Assembly: GCA_024654625.1 (NCBI GenBank) | Contig: JANLHB010000021.1 | Location: 1 to 52,845 of the forward strand | Source: Patescibacteria group bacterium | GTDB lineage: Bacteria > Patescibacteriota > Minisyncoccia > GCA-002772825 | DNA length: 52,845 nucleotides | Direction of reading: 5' to 3' | Shown: one piece after another, positions 3,125 through 44,611 of the stretch | Numbering within the stretch: position 1 is the stretch's first letter | Layout: the number at the start of each line of letters is the position of its first letter | Made by a program: the position numbers and the translations under genes | The notes under the pieces: model-generated | What the model was told of the DNA's origin: nothing | Databases searched by the model: none | Seen by the model: only the letters and a program-made list of their open reading frames with translations

Positions 3125-3280
3125 TTATATCCATATTACAAGATTTATGCTCACTGCACCACTTCTGACATTTCCCTGCCTGCCGGCAGGCAGGTCCGCC
3201 CATTCTTTGTCTTCATATTCATAACCGCACTGCTCGCACTGATATAATTCTTTATCATCTTTTTTTATTATTTTTACCAT
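3125..3280 (-). pseudogene. Small Cys-rich (zinc-ribbon-like) ORF interrupted by the 20-bp palindrome
   Basis: The ATG is at 3280. As found it reads MVKIIKKDDKELYQCEQCGYEYEDKEWAD-LPAGRQ-GNVRSGAVSINLVIWI*. Removing 3175-3194 restores ...KEWAEKCQKWCSEHKSCNMDIIKHGNPK*, ending at 3102 and overlapping the dsbA-like start. Confidence 0.5.
3175..3194. repeat. 20-bp perfect palindrome CCTGCCTGCCGGCAGGCAGG (copy in the small Cys ORF)
   Basis: Exact self-complementary 20-mer read directly. Confidence 0.95.
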
Positions 3281-16513: not shown

Positions 16514-17396
16514 CTTGCTCCGCCTCTATGAATTCATCTAATCCTCCGTCTAAAACCTTTTCTACATCACGTTCCTCTACTCCCGTACGATGATCTTTTA
16601 CAAGCTTATATGGGTGAAAGACATAAGACCTGATCTGGCTTCCCCATTCAGGAGAAACTTCTTTGCTTATTTTCATCAAAGCCATCTCTTTATCCTTCTC
16701 ATCTTCTATCAATTTATATATCTTAGCCCTTAACATATTGAGAGCTCTTTCTTTGTTCTGCGCCTGAGAACGTTCCGTCTCACAGTGTACTGCGAGTTTC
16801 GTCGGTATATGCACGACCCTTACCGCCGTCTCTCTCTTATTAACATTTTGCCCTCCGGCGCCTGAACTTCTGGCAAATTCATATCTGATATCCTTCTCTG
16901 GAATATCCATATCGCCCTTATCAACAATAACAGGCACAACCTCAAGCAAAGCAAAAGAAGTATGCCTGAGCTTCTTAGCTGAAAATGGCGATATTCTCAC
17001 AAGCCGATGAACTCCTTGTTCTTTTTTTAATTTACCATAAGCGCCACTGCCCGTAACTTCAAAAGTAATATTTTTATAACCCTGCCTGCCGGCAGGCAGG
17101 CGCCTCTCAGCACCTTCGTGCTTGTGAATTATTTTAAGCGACCAACCTTTCTTCTCAATATATTTAGAATACATATCAAAAAGGATCCTTGTCCAATCTT
17201 CCGCATCGTCTCCACCGGCGCCGGAAAATAAGGTGAGTAAAGCGCCCCCTTTATCGTATTTGCCAAGTCCGGAAAGTTTATCCTTAAGCTCGTTTAATTC
17301 TTTGATTATGTCTTGCGCTTTCGCTTTATCGTCCCAGAAATTAGGCTCCTGCATACTCCTCTCAATATTTTCTATTCTTTCTTTAATTTCGCTCAT
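16494..17396 (-). CDS. prfB: Peptide chain release factor 2, short form, no programmed frameshift
   Basis: 300 aa with the SPF tripeptide (RISPFSA) and GGQ (SGAGGQNVNK). It is a single uninterrupted ORF and carries an in-frame LPAGRQ palindrome. Confidence 0.9.
   Translation of the reverse strand: MSEIKERIENIERSMQEPNFWDDKAKAQDIIKELNELKDKLSGLGKYDKGGALLTLFSGAGGDDAEDWTRILFDMYSKYIEKKGWSLKIIHKHEGAERRLPAGRQGYKNITFEVTGSGAYGKLKKEQGVHRLVRISPFSAKKLRHTSFALLEVVPVIVDKGDMDIPEKDIRYEFARSSGAGGQNVNKRETAVRVVHIPTKLAVHCETERSQAQNKERALNMLRAKIYKLIEDEKDKEMALMKISKEVSPEWGSQIRSYVFHPYKLVKDHRTGVEERDVEKVLDGGLDEFIEAEQDLATSH
17081..17100. repeat. 20-bp perfect palindrome CCTGCCTGCCGGCAGGCAGG (copy inside prfB)
   Basis: Exact 20-mer, read on the minus strand as R-LPAGRQ-G. 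Confidence 0.95.
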
Positions 17397-34420: not shown

Positions 34421-34453
34421 CTACGGATGTCTACGGATGTCGCACTTCCGTAG
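34421..34453 (-). repeat. REP copy (1 mismatch) with a 10-nt partial duplication
   Basis: CTACGGATGT + CTACGGATGTCGCACTTCCGTAG. It is the reverse orientation of the 23-nt REP found at 43478 and 43970. Confidence 0.85.
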
Positions 34454-38071: not shown

Positions 38072-40129
38072 TTATCCTAAAATTTCCAGAAATTCCTCTT
38101 CATTTATAGTCTTCACGCCAATCTTCTTAGCCTTGTCATATTTTGAGCCAGGGTCGCTACCATAGACGACAAAATCGGTATTCTTAGAGACTGACTCTGA
38201 CACTTCTCCCCCCAGCTGTTTAATCATCTTCTTCGCTTCATCCCGACTCATCTTACTAAGAGAGCCCGTCAACACAAACTTAAGCTTTTTAAGTTTGGCT
38301 CCTTTTACTTGAGTCTGTTTTTTGATCATCACTCGAGGGAGGAGCTTCTTTAAAAATCTTTTATTATCATTATCTCTAAACCAATCATATATGCTTCTTG
38401 CCACAATAGGCCCAACATCAGAAACTTTTTCCAATTCTTGAATAGAAGCCTTTTCTAAATTTTCAATAGTATGAAAACTCTCGGCTAAATCTTCGGCAGT
38501 GCTTTCTCCCACATTCTCTATTCCTAGAGAAATTATAAATCTTGAGAAATCTATTTCCCTGCGGGAATTTATCGCTTTAATGAGGTTCTTTGCCGACTTT
38601 TCAGCAAAGCGTTCTAATGGCGTTATATCTCCCTCTTTTAGATCAAAAAAATCAGCCGCATCCTGTACCAAATTATTATCTAAAAGGGCATCTATTATCT
38701 TAGGACCAAGTCCCTCTATATCAAACGCCTTCTTAGAAGCAAAATAATAAAGGCCCCTTCTGTGGCGCGTAGCGCATTTCTTGTTATGGCATTTTGCGAT
38801 AGGGCTATCTTTTAAAAATACTACTTTCGACTTGCAGATAGGACAGACATTTGGCATTTTAAATAGCTTCTCTTTCCCTGTCCTCATCTCTTTTATAACG
38901 CTCACTATATCAGGGATAATGTCTCCCGCCTTCTGCAAAATAACAGTATCACCAATACGAACATCAAGTCTTTTTATCTCATCCTCATTATGAAGCGTGG
39001 CTCTTGATACTACAGAACCGGCAATAGTCACCGGCCTTAAGTGGGCAACCGGAGTCAAGGCGCCAGTCCTCCCAACTTGCACATCAATATCTTCTACAAC
39101 TGTCGTTGCCTGCTCAGCCGGAAACTTCAAAGCGACGGCAAAACGAGGGGCCTTACCTGTATAACCCAGTCGTTCCTGCCACTCTGAATTGTTTAATTTA
39201 ACAACAACGCCGTCAATCCAATACTTTGTCTTATCTTTTTTCTTTTGCCAAACACGCCAAAAATCTACAACCTCTTCAATATTTTTACATAATTTAAAAT
39301 GCGGATTTACTTTAAATCCTAACTCTTTAAGAAAGCTAAGCTCTTCAATCTGAGTCTCTGGAACCTCAATCCCTACGGACGTCGCATGTCCGTAGTCTAA
39401 CCAAGCCAGATCGTATATAAAGCTATCAAGTTTGCGCGAAGAAGCAATCTTCGGGTCAAGCTGGCGAATAGAGCCGGCGGCGGCATTTCGCGGGTTGGCA
39501 AACAACTGTTCCCCCTTCCTTCCCCTTTCCTTATTAAGATTTTCAAATTCATCTTTTCCCATCCAGATCTCGCCTTCCACAATGCAATCAACATCTTTAT
39601 TTAGATGAAGAGGAATCGACTCTATGGTCTTAACGTTAGCTGTCACATCCTCGCCCACCTTTCCATCACCACGCGTTGCCGCAGTTTTTAATATCCCTCT
39701 CTCATAAGTAAGGATAATTTTAAAACCGTCAATCTTAAGCTCCGAGACATATTCAAGTCCTTTGGCTATCGGGTAACCAAATTCTTTATCAAGCAGGCGC
39801 TTAACTCGATTATCAAATTCCCTTATTTCGTCTTCATTAAACACGTCATTAAAAGACCATTGTGTCACCTTATGATGAATTTTCTTAAATTTTTCAAGCG
39901 GTTTTCCTCCCACTCTCTGTGTCGGAGAGTCGGTAGTTATGAGATCAGGGAAAGACTGCTCCAGCTCATAAAGCTCGTGCTTTAGAGAATCAAGCGCCGC
40001 TTCAGTTATCTCTTGCTTATCAAGCACATGATAAAGATACCTGTGATGGTTTATTAATTTTTTAAGCTTCTCTATCCGCTCTTTTGCTTTAGAGTATCTT
40101 TCTTCCGCGTCAATTTTTTTCTCAAACAT
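38072..40129 (-). CDS. ligA: NAD-dependent DNA ligase
   Basis: 685 aa with the adenylation motif ELKIDG, a 4-Cys zinc finger (CPICKS..CHNKKC), HhH and a C-terminal BRCT. Confidence 0.95.
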   Translation of the reverse strand: MFEKKIDAEERYSKAKERIEKLKKLINHHRYLYHVLDKQEITEAALDSLKHELYELEQSFPDLITTDSPTQRVGGKPLEKFKKIHHKVTQWSFNDVFNEDEIREFDNRVKRLLDKEFGYPIAKGLEYVSELKIDGFKIILTYERGILKTAATRGDGKVGEDVTANVKTIESIPLHLNKDVDCIVEGEIWMGKDEFENLNKERGRKGEQLFANPRNAAAGSIRQLDPKIASSRKLDSFIYDLAWLDYGHATSVGIEVPETQIEELSFLKELGFKVNPHFKLCKNIEEVVDFWRVWQKKKDKTKYWIDGVVVKLNNSEWQERLGYTGKAPRFAVALKFPAEQATTVVEDIDVQVGRTGALTPVAHLRPVTIAGSVVSRATLHNEDEIKRLDVRIGDTVILQKAGDIIPDIVSVIKEMRTGKEKLFKMPNVCPICKSKVVFLKDSPIAKCHNKKCATRHRRGLYYFASKKAFDIEGLGPKIIDALLDNNLVQDAADFFDLKEGDITPLERFAEKSAKNLIKAINSRREIDFSRFIISLGIENVGESTAEDLAESFHTIENLEKASIQELEKVSDVGPIVARSIYDWFRDNDNKRFLKKLLPRVMIKKQTQVKGAKLKKLKFVLTGSLSKMSRDEAKKMIKQLGGEVSESVSKNTDFVVYGSDPGSKYDKAKKIGVKTINEEEFLEILG

Positions 40130-40136
40130 TTTAAAA

Positions 40137-40634
40137 TTAATAACTAGCTTGCAATACGCGTTCTACCTGTAATTTGCCTGGGTCAGCTGTACAACTTGAA
40201 CCGACATTTCCGATATTATAACCGTAAGATATCAGCTTTGTATTCGGCGGGGAATCTTTATATACCTCAATTTGAGCGCAAGATCCATTACTAAAACCTA
40301 AATAAAAAGTGGTGGTGGAAGCTACCATAGACCCGCTTATAGGCGACCCGAGACAATTAATATCATAATTTGGCTTATCAAATTCTTTCTTTTTTATATC
40401 CCAATACAGAGCGCATTCTATACCGGCATCAGAAGCGGTAAAAGCCCTGCTTGACTCTCGGCTGATCTGGGATATTTTAAACTGTCTAACCACTATATTA
40501 TATATACCCAAAGAAGCTGACAAGATTATAGTCAAAATAAGAAGAGAAAAAAGAAGAGTAAACCCCTGCCTGCCGGTAAGCAGGCGCTTTAAATTAATCT
40601 TTGATAAATTTTTTAATTTATTATTCATAATCAT
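40137..40634 (-). CDS. Prepilin-like minor pilin lacking Glu5
   Basis: 165 aa with leader ..RLLTGRQG/FTLLFSLLIL and a degenerate palindrome at 40565-40584. Confidence 0.6.
   Translation of the reverse strand: MIMNNKLKNLSKINLKRLLTGRQGFTLLFSLLILTIILSASLGIYNIVVRQFKISQISRESSRAFTASDAGIECALYWDIKKKEFDKPNYDINCLGSPISGSMVASTTTFYLGFSNGSCAQIEVYKDSPPNTKLISYGYNIGNVGSSCTADPGKLQVERVLQASY
40565..40584. repeat. Degenerate copy of the 20-bp palindrome
   Basis: CCTGCCTGCCGGTAAGCAGG. Confidence 0.8.
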
Positions 40635-41211: not shown

Positions 41212-41742
41212 TTAGGAATCCGGCGCAAGTTGAGATACAGAAGCTTGCAACTCAATCTTTGATTGTTCTTTCTCTTTTACACCGGAAGAAGCGGAAAGAT
41301 TAATCCTCACTATAGGCTGAAAATTATCGCCTGAAGATTCGCCTCTTAAATCAAAGGCGAGAGAATCTATGCTAATTTTAGAATCTGTCAGAGGAAATTC
41401 ATTTACCCCATCCGACCTTATTAACTGATTACCAGATAATTGATAAGTAATATTCTCAAGCCTCGCATTTATAAATGAGAATGTATCTCCTGTGGAAGAA
41501 TAATTATCCCCTGTCCTGATCTCTCTTGACATTGCATCCAGGGCGAAATTTAAATTATCCGAAACAGATCTAAATGATTCAATCTTTTTTTGCGCGTCAT
41601 TTATATTTAAAATGGACTCCATCGCCATCGTCATAACAACAGTAAAGACAGCTATTGCGACTATCATCTCAAGTATCGTGAATCCCTGCCTGCCGGCAGG
41701 CAGGCTTTTACTATTATTTATTTTTTTAAATTTATTATTCAT
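41212..41742 (-). CDS. Type IV minor pilin
   Basis: 176 aa with leader ..SLPAGRQG/FTILEMIVAI. Confidence 0.75.
   Translation of the reverse strand: MNNKFKKINNSKSLPAGRQGFTILEMIVAIAVFTVVMTMAMESILNINDAQKKIESFRSVSDNLNFALDAMSREIRTGDNYSSTGDTFSFINARLENITYQLSGNQLIRSDGVNEFPLTDSKISIDSLAFDLRGESSGDNFQPIVRINLSASSGVKEKEQSKIELQASVSQLAPDS
41685..41704. repeat. 20-bp perfect palindrome CCTGCCTGCCGGCAGGCAGG (pilin leader)
   Basis: Exact 20-mer. Confidence 0.95.
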
Positions 41743-41745
41743 ATT

Positions 41746-42375
41746 TTACTCAGCTTCAACGCTAACCTGCCCGCTTTTCCAGACAATAACCTTCACACCG
41801 TTTGCAGTCTCTCCCGCCGACCTAAACAATATCATCGTATCAGAAATAGCATCGTCATCATTTATATTCGCATATATACTGGAACGCTTATAAATAACAT
41901 CTGCCGTATTCACGCTTCCGGCGCCTGGACAGGCAAACGGTGAGGTTATTTTCTGATTTATGCATATCTGCTTTATTCTGTCGGAAGATTGAACTTTAAA
42001 AATCTCCTCTTCTTCTCCTACTGTATAATTATTGTCAGCATTACTATCTGAAAAAATAATAACAGTATCAGGAAGCGCCATATCAAAATGAACACCATAA
42101 GCCACCGACGATCCCGGTCCTGAAATAATCTTGTTGCTTATTCCATAAGCCTGAGCCTCTCTTATAATTGAAACTATTTCTTGAGTGACTCCTTCAAGCT
42201 TTATCTTTTTATTGAAAGTCGTATAATTTGCCAAAATTACAGTTGTTACCATGACCATAATACCGACAGAAACGATAAGCTCAATAAGGGTAAACCCCTG
42301 CCTGCCGATAGGCATGGTCTGCCTGCCTTGCGATTTCAATCTTTTTTTTAATAAATTAAGGAGATGAGAAACCAT
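41746..42375 (-). CDS. Type IV minor pilin
   Basis: 209 aa with leader ..SQGRQTMPIGRQG/FTLIELIVSV. Confidence 0.75.
   Translation of the reverse strand: MVSHLLNLLKKRLKSQGRQTMPIGRQGFTLIELIVSVGIMVMVTTVILANYTTFNKKIKLEGVTQEIVSIIREAQAYGISNKIISGPGSSVAYGVHFDMALPDTVIIFSDSNADNNYTVGEEEEIFKVQSSDRIKQICINQKITSPFACPGAGSVNTADVIYKRSSIYANINDDDAISDTMILFRSAGETANGVKVIVWKSGQVSVEAE
42297..42327. repeat. Degenerate palindrome with an extra half-copy
   Basis: CCTGCCTGCC-GATAGGCATGGT-CTGCCTGCC. Confidence 0.7.
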
Positions 42376-43172: not shown

Positions 43173-43290
43173 AAAATATATTTTAACATAAAATCCCGCC
43201 AAAAGCGGAATAAAATTTCTACTTATCAATTTTACGGGCACCTATCAACTTTGTGACCTTATGACTTTGTGACTTTACGTACGGTGTGCT

Positions 43291-43313
43291 TTACGGACGT
43301 CGCACTTCCGTAG
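43291..43313 (-). repeat. REP copy upstream of the RAYT gene (inverted orientation)
   Basis: TTACGGACGTCGCACTTCCGTAG, preceded by the partial duplication CTTTACGTACGG. Confidence 0.9.
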
Positions 43314-43325
43314 TAGAATAAAGAT

Positions 43326-43967
43326 ATGGAAAATAATATATTTCATGTCATAAATAGAGGTGTAGAAAAAAGAAAAATCTTCCTTCATGATAAAGACTAT
43401 CTTCGTTTTAGTCACAACATCAAAGACTTTAATACTATTAAAAATGTTCCCTCTTACTTCAACCGCCGTATTCATAACTACGGAAGTGCGACGTCCGTAG
43501 AAGAAGAGTTAGTTGATGTTCTCTGTTGGTGCTTAATGCCTAATCATTCTCACATGATAACTATCAATAAAATTGATATGGGTACAAGCTTTTTTTCTAA
43601 AAAAATATTTGGAGGATATACGAAATATTTTAATAAAGAAAATAAAAGAAGCGGTGTTTTATTTCAAGGAAGATCTAAAATAATCCCAATAGAAAAGGAT
43701 GAGCACTTACTACATCTGCCTTTTTATATTCATTCAAATCCTCTTAATTTACTTCAACCAAACTGGAAAGAGACCGGTATTAAAGACATTAAAAAGGCGC
43801 TTAAATTTTTAGAAAAATATCGTTGGTCAAGCTATTTAGATATAATAGGAAAAGAAAATTTTCCTGATACAACTAACAAAAAACTTTTTTATGAAATATT
43901 TGACACTAATGAAAAGAGATATAAAAAAGACTTTGAAGACTGGCTATCTAGTTTTAATTTTAATTAA
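43326..43967 (+). mobile_element. IS200/IS605-like Y1 (HUH) transposase of the REP-associated tyrosine transposase (RAYT) type
   Basis: 213 aa with HVINRGVEKRKIF, the HUH motif CLMPNHSHMI and a Tyr motif FYIHSNP. It is flanked by inverted REP copies. Confidence 0.8.
43478..43500 (+). repeat. REP copy inside the RAYT coding sequence (in frame)
   Basis: CTACGGAAGTGCGACGTCCGTAG is 23/23 identical to 43970-43992 and encodes ..N-YGSATSV-E.. between the N-terminal motif and the HUH motif. Confidence 0.95.
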
Positions 43968-43969
43968 GT

Positions 43970-43992
43970 CTACGGAAGTGCGACGTCCGTAG
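43970..43992 (+). repeat. REP copy 2 nt after the RAYT stop
   Basis: CTACGGAAGTGCGACGTCCGTAG (stem CTACGGA/TCCGTAG). Confidence 0.95.
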
Positions 43993-44007
43993 AATTAATA
44001 TATACAT

Positions 44008-44044
44008 ACAACATAAATCCCGCTTTTGGCGGGATTTATGTTGT
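44008..44044. terminator. Bidirectional hairpin terminator (16-bp stem, AATCCCGC core)
   Basis: ACAACATAAATCCCGC-TTTTG-GCGGGATTTATGTTGT, between the convergent RAYT and pilA genes. Confidence 0.75.
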
Positions 44045-44062
44045 AAAACTAAATTATTTAGT

Positions 44063-44611
44063 TTATGGTGTCACATCATAACATCCATCGTCTGTGCCCG
44101 CTGCAGAACAGTCAGCTCCTTGTCCATTAAATGTATATGTACTATCAGCATCACTACCAAGGACAGAATGTCCGCCAGTGCCAACAAGACCTGTTCCATC
44201 TTGCTCTAGATTAGCGCCTAAATGATAAAAATTACAAACACCGGTTGCTATAGCACAGACAGCTCCGGCAGAAGTCACATTGTCATAAGAATATATAGCT
44301 CCAGTACTTGGATCCTTAGGTTCAGCAGGAATAAAGCCGTCAGTAACAAGTTGAGCTACAGTATCTGGATACTCTGAACCATTACTATCAGCAAAAAGTT
44401 CAAGAGCTAATTGGACCTGCTTTATATCAGAAACTCTTTTAGCATCACGAGATTTCTGCCTTGCGCTGTTTAGTGAGGCAAGTACCACTGATGAAAGAAT
44501 ACCGATGATCGCAATAACGACCAGAAGTTCAATCAAAGTAAAACCCTGCCTACCGGCAGGCAGGCTCTTTGAACTGATTTTAAATTTATTTTTTAACATA
44601 TTATTTTTCAT
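44063..44611 (-). CDS. pilA: Type IV major pilin (PilA-like)
   Basis: 182 aa with leader MKNNMLKNKFKISSKSLPAGRQG/FTLIELLVVIAIIGILSSVVLASL; it is monocistronic behind a long structured leader. Confidence 0.8.
   Translation of the reverse strand: MKNNMLKNKFKISSKSLPAGRQGFTLIELLVVIAIIGILSSVVLASLNSARQKSRDAKRVSDIKQVQLALELFADSNGSEYPDTVAQLVTDGFIPAEPKDPSTGAIYSYDNVTSAGAVCAIATGVCNFYHLGANLEQDGTGLVGTGGHSVLGSDADSTYTFNGQGADCSAAGTDDGCYDVTP
44545..44564. repeat. 20-bp palindrome, 1 mismatch (pilA leader)
   Basis: CCTGCCTACCGGCAGGCAGG. Confidence 0.9.

What the first reader, a model, noticed from the sequence alone, without database searches (positions are those of the whole stretch)
43291..43992. REP-RAYT module inserted between pilD and pilA, with one REP copy in frame inside the transposase gene itself
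A 213-aa HUH/Y1 transposase (HVINRG.., LMPNHSHMI, YIHSNP) is flanked by a 23-nt hairpin repeat in inverted orientation (43291-43313 and 43970-43992). That is the classical REP/RAYT arrangement.

A third, 23/23-identical copy sits within the ORF (43478-43500). It encodes YGSATSV between the N-terminal motif and the HUH motif. A fourth copy with one mismatch and a partial duplication lies 9 kb away at 34421-34453.

A REP embedded in its own RAYT coding region is unusual. It could mean self-targeting, autoregulation or a recent hit. REP/RAYT systems are mostly described in Proteobacteria, so a copy in a CPR-like genome is notable if the lineage call is right.
Basis: partly seen in the sequence, partly recalled or inferred. 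Interest (0 to 1): 0.65.

Follow-up and report, generated by a model that had tools for sequence, protein, structure and literature searches.

The report
Hairpin-cutting enzyme gene carrying its own hairpin
A small transposase-like gene of an ultra-small (CPR/Patescibacteria) bacterium carries its own 23-base DNA hairpin in its promoter, in frame inside its coding sequence and just after its stop codon. This layout is shared by a large family of such genes rather than being a one-off accident.

Summary
The hairpin CTACGGAAGTGCGACGTCCGTAG lies at 43291-43313 (inverted, 1 mismatch), 43478-43500 (exact, in frame, NYGSATSV) and 43970-43992 (exact) around a 213-aa ORF. The ORF has intact HUH and Tyr motifs and a fold closest to E. 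coli TnpA-REP (4ER8).

The genome holds 12 copies, with others in frame in mnmA and tsaE.

The internal copy is not a recent hit:
- All seven paralogs in this genome have their own distinct flanking hairpin, and three also carry it at the same loop.
- Of 72 cassettes, 45 have a loop segment matching their own flanks, against 2 of 72 for a control segment.
- All copies within a locus change together.

The 5' copy overlaps a likely leaderless promoter.

Two congeners have an empty pilA-pilD spacer. A third has a different family member (34% identical) at the same spot, so the cassette moves as a unit.

In-frame REPs inside RAYT genes were reported in 2018 for subclass 2.4, between HuH and Y. This CPR family places the copy before HuH, and I found no description of it.

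Verdict: a real, new variant of a known kind. The role of the internal copy is still inferred.

The parts
43291..43313 (-). 5' cognate hairpin, inverted relative to the other two cassette copies, with 1 mismatch. It fills the -35/spacer region of the predicted promoter.
43290..43319 (+). Predicted sigma-70-like promoter TTTACG-18-TAGAAT. The -10 hexamer ends 6 nt before the ATG, so the mRNA is probably leaderless.
   Evidence: 9/12 match, not significant alone; a TANNNT hexamer ends 4-9 nt before the start codon, downstream of the 5' hairpin, in 27 of 42 loci. Shuffles give 9.5 +/- 2.5, and 0 of 1000 reach 27.
43326..43967 (+). RAYT-like class-2 Y1 HUH nuclease/transposase gene, 213 aa. HUH = H74-S-H76 (43545-43553). 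Catalytic Tyr Y134 lies in YIHSNP (43725-43727). Residues 140-208 form an extra C-terminal helical domain.
   Evidence: HMM hits below curated cut-offs. (H74, H76, Y134, N138 invariant; P139 at least 90%). (pLDDT 85). (top hit 4er8_A, E 6.6e-5, TM 0.60 on the target).
43478..43500 (+). Internal cognate hairpin, 23/23 identical to the 3' copy. It is translated as NYGSATSV (residues 51-58) in a low-confidence loop between helix 44-49 and strand 63-70.
   Evidence: The position is shared family-wide.
43970..43992 (+). 3' cognate hairpin. It starts 3 nt after the stop codon and shares 25 nt (to 43994) with the internal copy.
43214..44006 (.). Approximate extent of DNA absent from the pilA-pilD spacer of congeners. 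It comprises the cassette, about 77 nt of unique sequence on the 5' side of the RAYT (containing GTCACAAAGT repeats) and 14 nt on the 3' side.
   Evidence: empty sites in G001 and G002. (the extra sequence is unique in the genome).
44007..44045 (-). pilA terminator hairpin with a 17-bp stem. It forms one border of the insert.
43191..43213 (-). Truncated, loop-inverted second copy of the pilA terminator hairpin, next to the pilD -10/ATG. It forms the other border of the insert. Its right arm plus TAAAAT matches the empty-site sequence of congeners.
39373..39395 (-). Copy of the same hairpin family (ACAT subtype, 2 mismatches) in frame inside ligA, read as DYGHATSVG in a variable loop.
34421..34453 (-). 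Intergenic solo copy (1 mismatch) with a duplicated half-arm.

Best explanation
**What it is.** This is a REPtron-like cassette of a Patescibacteria-wide family of class-2 Y1 HUH (RAYT-like) single-strand-DNA nucleases.

**Shown**
- The enzyme has intact HUH and Tyr motifs and the TnpA-REP/IS608 fold.
- Its gene carries one cognate 23-nt hairpin over its promoter, one in frame in a disordered loop just before the HUH strand, and one 3 nt after the stop.
- This three-site layout recurs across the family, with a different hairpin in each locus.
- All copies within a locus change together, including compensatory changes in both arms.
- Solo copies of the window's hairpin are scattered in the genome. 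They are read in all three frames: ligA and the RAYT itself share one, tsaE uses a second, mnmA the third.
- The whole cassette is present, absent or replaced at the pilA-pilD spacer among congeners.

**Inferred**
- By analogy with TnpA-REP and IS608 TnpA, the enzyme binds the hairpin when the DNA is single-stranded, cuts at its foot and rejoins.
- That activity, acting preferentially in cis on its own gene, keeps the three cassette copies identical and seeds solo copies.
- The promoter copy gives the enzyme a handle on its own transcription (autoregulation).
- The internal copy is an old, repeatedly refreshed cis site in the one part of the protein that tolerates any peptide. It is not an accident of this locus.
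- It is helpful or neutral rather than strictly required, because intact relatives without it exist.
For: **Enzyme**
- H74, H76, Y134 and N138 are invariant in 32 homologues, and P139 is conserved in at least 90%.
- The model has pLDDT 85, and residues 50-62 are low-confidence loop.
- The best structural match is 4er8_A, followed by IS608 and ISDra2 TnpA.

**Layout**
- All seven paralogs in this genome are flanked by their own hairpin, and 3 of 7 carry an internal copy at the same loop.
- Among 72 cassettes, 64 have a flank pair of at least 12 nt. 45 have a loop segment matching a flank (40 match both). The control ORF segment matches in 2 of 72.
- Exact 13-mers shared with the flanks fall mostly at query residues 45-62. 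The rest lie near residue 143 or at the C-terminal end, where further hairpin copies sit.
- 12 of 16 further paralogs from related genomes repeat the layout.

**The constraint is on the nucleic acid, not the peptide**
- The loops read DVARP or GRATS, which are reverse complements of each other, or YGSATS, in different frames.

**Concerted evolution**
- Within a clade that shares the outer stem ACTTGG, the inner core differs between loci but is the same in all copies of a locus. Examples are GGAAGTCCGACTTCC x3, GGAGGTCCGACCTCC x4, GGAGGTTCAACCTCC x3 and GGAAGCAAGGCTTCC x4.

**Promoter**
-.

**Hairpin mobility**
- tsaE has a clean +7-codon insert relative to three congeners.
- In mnmA the frame-3 TAG of the hairpin reads TAC instead.

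**Cassette mobility**
- G001 and G002 have empty sites. G003 has a member of a different lineage at the same spacer and in the same orientation. That member is 34% identical to the window protein and 63% to this genome's C31 paralog.
- No ortholog above 45% identity exists in the genus, while the closest relative (61%) is in another family.
Against: - No cleavage, binding or expression data exist, and no sequencing runs could be found. Every step involving enzyme action is by analogy.
- The protein misses the curated cut-offs of Pfam Y1_Tnp (17.4 against 23 bits) and NCBIfam REP_Tyr_transpos (27 against 80 bits).
- The copy number is low (12, in three subtypes, only 5 of the cassette's exact subtype). 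Classical REPs number in the hundreds.
- 20 cassettes with flank pairs but no recognisable internal copy still have intact HUH and Tyr. The tree needs at least 12 gains or losses of the internal copy. The internal copy is therefore dispensable, and a role for it is not demonstrated.
- The orientation of the copies relative to each other varies between loci.
- The borders of the insert are a duplicated, partly inverted terminator hairpin, not the cassette hairpins. This does not look like clean Y1 cut-and-paste of the cassette.
Confidence: 0.7

Rival explanations
1. The internal copy is a tolerated passenger. The enzyme, or hairpin-driven replication slippage, repeatedly drops a copy of the hairpin into nearby DNA. 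The enzyme's own gene is the nearest target, and the loop before HUH is the only place where an in-frame insert survives. The recurrence would then reflect insertion bias plus purifying selection, and the internal copy would have no function.
For: - The same hairpin sits in frame in permissive loops of ligA, mnmA and tsaE.
- The loop is predicted to be disordered.
- 20 intact cassettes lack the internal copy.
- At least 12 state changes are needed on the tree.
- The reading frame and orientation of the internal copy differ between clades.
- Some members have further copies after the Tyr motif, at about residue 140-143.
- Quentin et al. 2018 read the subclass 2.4 inserts in this way.
Against: - Loop length is the same with (median 35.5 aa) and without (34 aa) a recognisable hairpin. 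It is 12-21 aa in non-CPR outgroups. This fits one old acquisition followed by decay or refreshment better than simple presence/absence insertions.
- Several members scored as lacking the copy keep near-threshold relics, for example SAMRKP, GHAMS and FGSLTS.
- The position is much more constant than in the housekeeping genes.
Confidence: 0.3
2. The hairpins work at the RNA level. The 3' copy would act as a terminator or mRNA stabiliser, as classical REPs do. The internal copy would act as a ribosome pause or an RNase site that limits expression. The similarity of the copies would be incidental to the enzyme.
For: - The 3' copy starts 3 nt after the stop in the window, and a few to about 20 nt after it in most relatives that have one.
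- The stems are stable.
- REPs are known to stabilise upstream mRNA (stated in PMC3479197 and PMC3733652 abstracts).
Against: - The 5' copy lies upstream of the -10 hexamer, so it is probably not transcribed.
- No U-tract follows the internal or the 3' copy.
- Orientation varies, so the RNA loop sequence is not conserved.
- RNA function does not explain why each enzyme lineage has its own hairpin, or why solo copies spread.
Confidence: 0.1
3. It is an autonomous IS200/IS605-type insertion sequence. The outer hairpins would be its left and right ends, and the internal hairpin an alternative end.
For: - The cassette is gained and lost as a unit.
- Two lineages occupy the same spacer next to a terminator hairpin.
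- The distribution is patchy and looks like horizontal transfer.
- There are 0-8 copies per genome.
Against: - No two copies within a genome are near-identical. The maximum is 57% in this genome and 71% across the 16 copies fetched from five related genomes.
- The Tyr motif is Y---NP (class 2), not the Y----Q of class 1. The protein is 213 aa with a C-terminal domain (motif table of PMC6006769).
- Solo hairpins spread without the gene.
- The insert borders are not at the cassette hairpins.
- The one apparent duplicate (L021/L022) is a self-inverted contig.
Confidence: 0.1

Closest known systems
REPtron: E. coli-type RAYT / TnpA-REP gene flanked by its REPs (PDB 4ER8; Nunvar 2010, PMC2817692; Messing 2012, PMC3479197)
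   Same: - Y1 HUH fold, with 4ER8 as the best structural match.
- Y---NP tyrosine motif.
- Gene flanked by its cognate palindrome in inverted orientation.
- One divergent gene per hairpin family.
- Solo hairpins elsewhere in the genome.
   Different: - A third copy lies in frame inside the gene.
- The 5' copy lies inside the promoter.
- There are only about a dozen copies per genome, several of them inside genes.
- No GTAG foot conserved across the family lies outside the stem.
- The gene is not vertically stable. The cassette comes and goes between congeners.
- The protein is 213 aa with an extra C-terminal helical domain, and it falls below the curated HMM cut-offs.
TnpA-Y1 subclass 2.4 with in-frame REP insertions in the tnpA-REP gene (Quentin, Siguier, Chandler & Fichant 2018, PMC6006769)
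   Same: The gene's own REP is inserted in the gene without breaking the frame, in a variable peripheral region. REPs also flank the gene.
   Different: [quoted passage not shown] Here the constant site is before HuH, between helix A and strand 2.
- The motifs differ: NH[IFV]H / WQ / YIxNNP there, NHSH / FQ / YIHSNP here.
- The taxa differ: Cyanobacteria and Bacteroidetes there, Patescibacteria here.
- By motifs this family looks more like subclass 2.1, which was reported without REPs. This is an inference from the paper's table and was not tested with their profiles.
IS200/IS605 transposases (IS608, ISDra2 TnpA)
   Same: The same fold (ranks 2-15), hairpins at both gene ends, action on single-stranded DNA, and mobility of the unit.
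   Different: These are class 1 (Y----Q), about 130-150 aa, and occur as multi-copy near-identical elements with defined left and right ends. None of this is seen here.
Rickettsia palindromic elements (in-frame palindromic inserts in protein-coding genes; recalled from Ogata et al. 2000, not read here; mentioned in PMC1779305 and PMC10969869)
   Same: Palindromic repeats inserted in frame into housekeeping genes at permissive loops.
   Different: As recalled from memory and not checked here, those elements are roughly 100-150 bp and have no known cognate enzyme. Here the unit is 21-25 nt and each hairpin family has a cognate Y1 gene.

Membership tests
REP/RAYT (REPtron; class-2 TnpA-Y1) | HUH motif and catalytic Tyr in a Y---NP motif | tested here: met
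   HSH at residues 74-76 and YIHSNP at 134-139. H74, H76, Y134 and N138 are invariant in 32 homologues, and P139 is conserved in at least 90%. The motifs are intact in 75 of 76 cassettes.
REP/RAYT (REPtron; class-2 TnpA-Y1) | Y1 HUH nuclease fold like TnpA-REP | tested here: met
   The model has pLDDT 85. The top Foldseek hit is 4er8_A, with E 6.6e-5, probability 1.00 and TM 0.60 on the target.
REP/RAYT (REPtron; class-2 TnpA-Y1) | Score above the curated family HMM cut-offs | tested here: not met
   Pfam PF01797 scores 17.4 bits against a cut-off of 23. NCBIfam NF047646 scores 27.3 bits against 80. The PDB sequence-profile search found nothing.
REP/RAYT (REPtron; class-2 TnpA-Y1) | Gene flanked by its cognate palindromes, typically inverted | tested here: met
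   64 of 72 cassettes have a flank pair.
REP/RAYT (REPtron; class-2 TnpA-Y1) | The cognate palindrome is dispersed at high copy number, mostly between genes | tested here: inconclusive
   There are 12 copies in 831 kb, in three subtypes. Four lie inside genes: the RAYT, ligA, mnmA and tsaE. The hairpin is dispersed but far below the hundreds of copies typical of REPs.
REP/RAYT (REPtron; class-2 TnpA-Y1) | One divergent gene per REP family, with no near-identical gene copies | tested here: met
   Seven paralogs are 30-57% identical, and each has its own hairpin. G003 and G020 show the same.
REP/RAYT (REPtron; class-2 TnpA-Y1) | Conserved GT[AG]G (or CGTC) foot next to the stem | tested here: inconclusive
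   The window hairpin reads CTAC...GTAG, but as the base of the stem. Relatives have other stem ends, such as GTGGAC, TCGGAC, ACTTGG and TATGGA. No common tetranucleotide outside the palindrome was seen by eye.
REP/RAYT (REPtron; class-2 TnpA-Y1) | The gene is stable and mostly vertically inherited, and the REPtron does not move as a unit | tested here: not met
   G001 and G002 have empty sites. A different lineage sits at the same site in G003. There is no ortholog above 45% in the genus, and the nearest (61%) is in another family.
REP/RAYT (REPtron; class-2 TnpA-Y1) | The enzyme cleaves and rejoins its REP in single-stranded DNA | not testable with these tools
   This needs biochemistry.
TnpA-Y1 subclass 2.4 (in-gene REPs) | The gene's own REP is inserted in frame inside the gene | tested here: met
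TnpA-Y1 subclass 2.4 (in-gene REPs) | [quoted passage not shown] | tested here: not met
   The insert is at residues 51-58, before H74. The motifs are NHSH, FQG and YIHSNP (the paper's table).
IS200/IS605 (class-1 TnpA) | Y----Q tyrosine motif, about 130-150 aa, several near-identical copies per genome | tested here: not met
   The motif is Y---NP, the protein is 213 aa, and paralogs are at most 57% identical.

The most novel reading that the evidence does not exclude
The internal hairpin would be a working part of a 'substrate-in-gene' replicator. The freshly made enzyme would act in cis on the hairpins written into its own promoter, coding loop and 3' end. It would nick them when the gene is single-stranded, during transcription or lagging-strand synthesis. 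This would set its own expression level. It would also use the three protected copies as master templates that overwrite each other and seed or refresh solo copies, including those in frame in ligA, mnmA and tsaE. Enzyme specificity and substrate would then be inherited and transferred horizontally as one self-contained unit.
Probability: 0.22. Interest if true: 0.8.

Novelty: new variant of a known kind. Interest (0 to 1): 0.55.

Why it matters
RAYT/REP systems are usually described as single-copy, vertically inherited, domesticated transposases that serve hundreds of extragenic repeats, mostly in Proteobacteria. Four features set this case apart:
- A large family in the smallest known bacterial genomes writes the enzyme's own substrate into its promoter and its reading frame.
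- All copies are kept identical while the sequence drifts between loci.
- The cassette moves as a unit between sites and genomes.
- 21-25-nt hairpins are inserted in frame into essential genes.

If the concerted change is driven by the enzyme, this is a compact system for studying how a Y1 nuclease and its DNA target co-evolve. It would also show how such nucleases rewrite short sequences in place.

There is a practical consequence for annotation. The odd 7-8-residue inserts in CPR housekeeping proteins and the 'hypothetical proteins' of this family have a common explanation.

Tried and rejected
- **Chance:** rejected. Zero matches are expected for the 23-mer, and the control ORF segment matches the flanks in 2 of 72 cassettes against 45 of 72 for the loop.
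- **Recent one-off hit:** rejected by the family-wide pattern.
- **Peptide-level conservation of the loop:** rejected, because the same DNA is read in both orientations and in different frames.
- **Public sequencing runs** to look for excision junctions or hairpin flips: none listed.
- **Sequence-profile search of the PDB:** no true hit, so a fold search was needed.
- **Rfam:** nothing near a gathering score.
- **Apparent duplicated cassette (L021/L022):** this is a self-inverted contig, 100% identical over 6645 nt including an inverted overlap. It is not evidence of transposition.
- **Apparent N-terminally truncated copies** starting at the hairpin position (hits from query residue 49-60): the one inspected (L109) is a full-length divergent member.
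- **Donor site for the about 77 nt of extra DNA beside the cassette:** the sequence is unique in the genome.
- **Dependence of catalytic integrity on the internal copy:** none found. 20 of the 21 cassettes with a flank pair but no internal copy are intact.
- **Literature searches** combining RAYT, TnpAREP or tyrosine transposase with Patescibacteria or CPR: nothing relevant.
- **Not attempted:** co-variation between protein residues and hairpin bases (too few independent contrasts), and replication-strand bias in the one complete related genome (only 6 cassettes).
Full report
**1. The observation**

The window holds five copies of the 23-nt imperfect palindrome CTACGGAAGTGCGACGTCCGTAG. None is expected by chance.

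Three of the copies frame and interrupt ORF 43326..43967:
- 43291-43313, inverted, with one mismatch.
- 43478-43500, exact.
- 43970-43992, exact.

The internal copy is read in frame as NYGSATSV, residues 51-58. This lies upstream of HSH (H74, H76) and of Y134 in YIHSNP.

The copy at 34431-34453, with a duplicated half-arm from 34421, is intergenic. It sits in frame inside the NAD-dependent DNA ligase gene.

As single-stranded DNA each copy folds into a 7-bp stem, an A.G mismatch, 2 bp and a GCG loop.

The whole 831-kb assembly (39% G+C) has 12 copies in three core subtypes:
- AAGT: the three cassette copies, tsaE and 34431.
- ACAT: ligA, mnmA and two intergenic copies.
- ACGT: three copies, two of them forming a REPIN-like doublet at C20:168727-168793.

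**2. The protein**

HMM matches are weak and fall below the curated cut-offs. Pfam Y1_Tnp scores 17.4 bits against a cut-off of 23, and NCBIfam REP_Tyr_transpos scores 27 bits against 80. A sequence profile finds no solved structure.

An AlphaFold model built on 32 homologues is confident (pLDDT 85, pTM 0.84). Its best structural match is the E. coli REP-associated tyrosine transposase bound to a REP hairpin (4er8_A, E 6.6e-5). IS608 and ISDra2 TnpA follow.

H74, H76, Y134 and N138 are invariant, and P139 is conserved in at least 90% of the sequences. The Y---NP motif is the class-2 (TnpA-REP-like) signature in the classification of Quentin et al. 2018 (PMC6006769).

The hairpin-encoded residues fall in the lowest-confidence stretch of the model. 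This is a loop between a short helix (44-49) and the strand that precedes the HUH strand.

**3. The internal copy is a family trait, not an accident**

This genome has seven paralogs, 30-57% identical. Each is flanked by its own, different hairpin. Three of them also carry that hairpin at the same loop: the window gene, C20:49394 and C4:20166.

I fetched 69 homologous loci, nearly all from Patescibacteria MAGs. Results from these and the seven paralogs:
- Exact 13-mers shared between ORF and flanks fall mostly at query residues 45-62. The remainder lie near residue 143 or at the C-terminal end, where further hairpin copies sit.
- In 45 of the 69 loci the best hairpin in the loop has copies in the locus's own flanks. 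These typically start 30-80 nt before the approximate start codon and a few to about 20 nt after the stop.
- Over 72 cassettes with adequate flanks, 64 have a flank pair of at least 12 nt.
- In 45 of those 72 the loop matches a flank, and in 40 it matches both. A control ORF segment of equal length matches in only 2.
- Sixteen more paralogs from related genomes, including a same-genus genome and a complete one, repeat the layout in 12 cases.

The loop peptides read SDVRRP or TDVARP in some proteins and GRATS, GHAMS or YGSATS in others. These are the same DNA read in opposite orientations and in different frames. The constraint is therefore on the nucleic acid, not on the peptide.

The profile of the 32 close homologues finds 426 clusters (50% identity) at E<=1e-30 and 5585 at E<=1e-10. 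The family is large.

**4. Old or recurrent?**

On a maximum-likelihood tree the internal copy occurs in all three major clades. Well-supported branches force at least 12 gains or losses.

Loop length is the same with a recognisable hairpin (median 35.5 residues) and without one (34). The three non-CPR outgroups have only 12-21 residues there. Several loci scored as negative keep near-threshold relics.

This fits an old acquisition of an extended loop that is repeatedly refreshed or allowed to decay. Independent re-insertions cannot be excluded.

All 20 CPR-family cassettes that have a flank pair but no internal copy still have intact HUH and Tyr. The internal copy is therefore not indispensable.

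**5. Concerted evolution**

One clade shares the outer stem ACTTGG...CCAAGT. Within it, the inner core differs between sister loci but is the same in every copy of a locus:
- GGAAGTCCGACTTCC, three copies.
- GGAGGTCCGACCTCC, four copies.
- GGAGGTTCAACCTCC, three copies.
- GGAAGCAAGGCTTCC, four copies.

The changes are compensatory in both arms at three or four sites. Independent mutation is a poor explanation for this, and copying between sites is a good one.

Between nearly identical cassettes the central base flips between C and G, as in L059 against L064 and in L036, L037 and L039. Exchange with an inverted copy would produce exactly this.

In the window, all three cassette copies share the A.G mismatch. 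The internal and 3' copies share 25 nt.

**6. Promoter**

The 5' copy fills the -35/spacer region of a TTTACG-18-TAGAAT match. The -10 hexamer ends 6 nt before the ATG. That match alone is not significant.

Across 42 loci, however, a TANNNT hexamer lies downstream of the 5' hairpin and ends 4-9 nt before the start codon in 27. Shuffles give 9.5 +/- 2.5, and none of 1000 reaches 27.

The 5' copy is therefore probably promoter DNA of a leaderless gene and not part of the transcript. This favours a role at the DNA level.

**7. The hairpins move, and land in frame in essential genes**

- **tsaE:** the hairpin is a clean 7-codon insert relative to three same-genus orthologues.
- **ligA:** the hairpin occupies a loop that differs in all four congeners and is 9-10 residues shorter in other families.
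- **mnmA:** a hairpin plus an overlapping inverted partial copy sits in a length-variable loop. The hairpin's frame-3 TAG reads TAC there, which keeps the frame open.

All three reading frames of the hairpin are in use in this genome.

**8. The cassette moves as a unit**

Two same-genus genomes have the order pilA, terminator hairpin, pilD, with no intervening gene.

A third congener has a family member in the same spacer and in the same antisense orientation, again just downstream of the pilA terminator hairpin. That member has its own three hairpins. It is only 34% identical to the window protein and 63% identical to this genome's C31 paralog. Two lineages have thus used the same spacer independently.

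No ortholog above 45% identity exists in the genus, while the nearest relative (61%) lies in another family. 17 of 31 related genomes have 0-8 copies.

In the window the insert (about 43214-44006) lies between a full copy of the pilA terminator hairpin and a truncated, loop-inverted copy. The borders are not at the cassette hairpins, and I cannot explain the insertion event itself.

**9. How it most likely works**

Shown:
- The fold and the catalytic motifs.
- The three-site layout and its recurrence.
- The concerted change of copies within a locus.
- The promoter position of the 5' copy.
- The in-frame solo copies.
- The gain and loss of the cassette.

Inferred by analogy with TnpA-REP and IS608 TnpA:
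- The enzyme binds the hairpin in single-stranded DNA, cuts at its foot and rejoins.
- Acting mainly in cis, it homogenises its own three copies and seeds solo copies.
- Binding at the promoter copy feeds back on transcription.

On this reading the internal copy is a cis site kept in the one loop that tolerates any peptide.

The main rival is that the internal copy is a tolerated passenger, renewed by the same activity and without a function of its own. My data do not separate the two readings. An RNA-level role and an IS200-type insertion sequence are less likely (see the rival explanations).

**10. Comparison with what is known**

The closest system is the REPtron (Nunvar 2010, PMC2817692; 4ER8, PMC3479197).

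In-frame REPs inside tnpA-REP genes were reported for subclass 2.4 of Cyanobacteria and Bacteroidetes. [quoted passage not shown] Here the constant site is before HuH. The motifs (NHSH, FQ, YIHSNP, plus a Ser motif after the Tyr) resemble subclass 2.1, which was reported without REPs. This resemblance is an inference from the paper's table and was not tested with their profiles.

Full-text searches found no description of this family in Patescibacteria.

Earlier notes of this scan report the same layout in other CPR genomes. I treated those notes as leads and re-derived each point here.

**11. Verdict**

The feature is real. It is wrong that the internal copy is unusual for this family, and wrong that it is recent.

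This is a new variant of a known kind. Interest is moderate, and would be higher if the enzyme is shown to act on its own gene.

Noticed in passing
window 40565-40580, 41685-41704, 42301-42312, 44549-44564; also 3175-3194 and 17081-17100: A second palindrome, CCTGCCTGCCGGCAGGCAGG, is written in frame as (S)LPAGRQG just before the G/FTLIE cleavage site of the pilin-like genes. It also occurs at two other places in the window: 17 matches against 0.6 expected. It matches none of the seven RAYT-paralog hairpins of this genome.
   Followed up: partly
window 43191-43213 and 44007-44045: The pilA terminator hairpin (17-bp stem) is present twice, once complete and once truncated with its loop inverted. 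The two copies bracket the inserted cassette. Congeners have one copy. How this arose is unexplained.
   Followed up: partly
window 43236-43275: Short direct repeats (GTGAC/GTCACAAAGT-type) lie in the about 77 nt of unique DNA between the truncated terminator copy and the 5' hairpin. The segment has no other match in the genome.
   Followed up: partly
genome contig C20:168712-168793: Two copies of the hairpin family in opposite loop orientation, 21 nt apart, preceded by a half-arm. This is a REPIN-like doublet. Half-arm duplications also precede the copies at 34421, C20:56578 and C44:33577.
   Followed up: no
L097 (G003 mnmA), L095 (G002 mnmA): The loop of MnmA after GHYA(R) varies from 0 to about 40 extra residues among relatives. 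G003 carries a long G+C-rich insert there. The site looks like a hot spot for short insertions in this genus.
   Followed up: no
L021 / L022 (JAYEKG010000065.1): The contig is a self-inverted palindrome, 100% identical over 6645 nt with an inverted overlap. This is probably an assembly artefact. The two 'copies' of the cassette were counted once in the tree but as two rows in the 72-cassette tallies.
   Followed up: yes
L086 3150-3240 (G003 pilA-pilD spacer): The 3' hairpin of that cassette sits inside a 29-bp perfect extended palindrome (AAACATCCAATTACTGAATTACTGAACAC...), much longer than the internal and 5' copies.
   Followed up: no
one search list (e.g. P0195, P0266, P0144, P0227): Some family representatives begin at profile positions 59-61 or 74, just after the internal-hairpin site or near the HUH motif. 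They could be contig ends, or genes split by an out-of-frame hairpin. Not examined.
   Followed up: no
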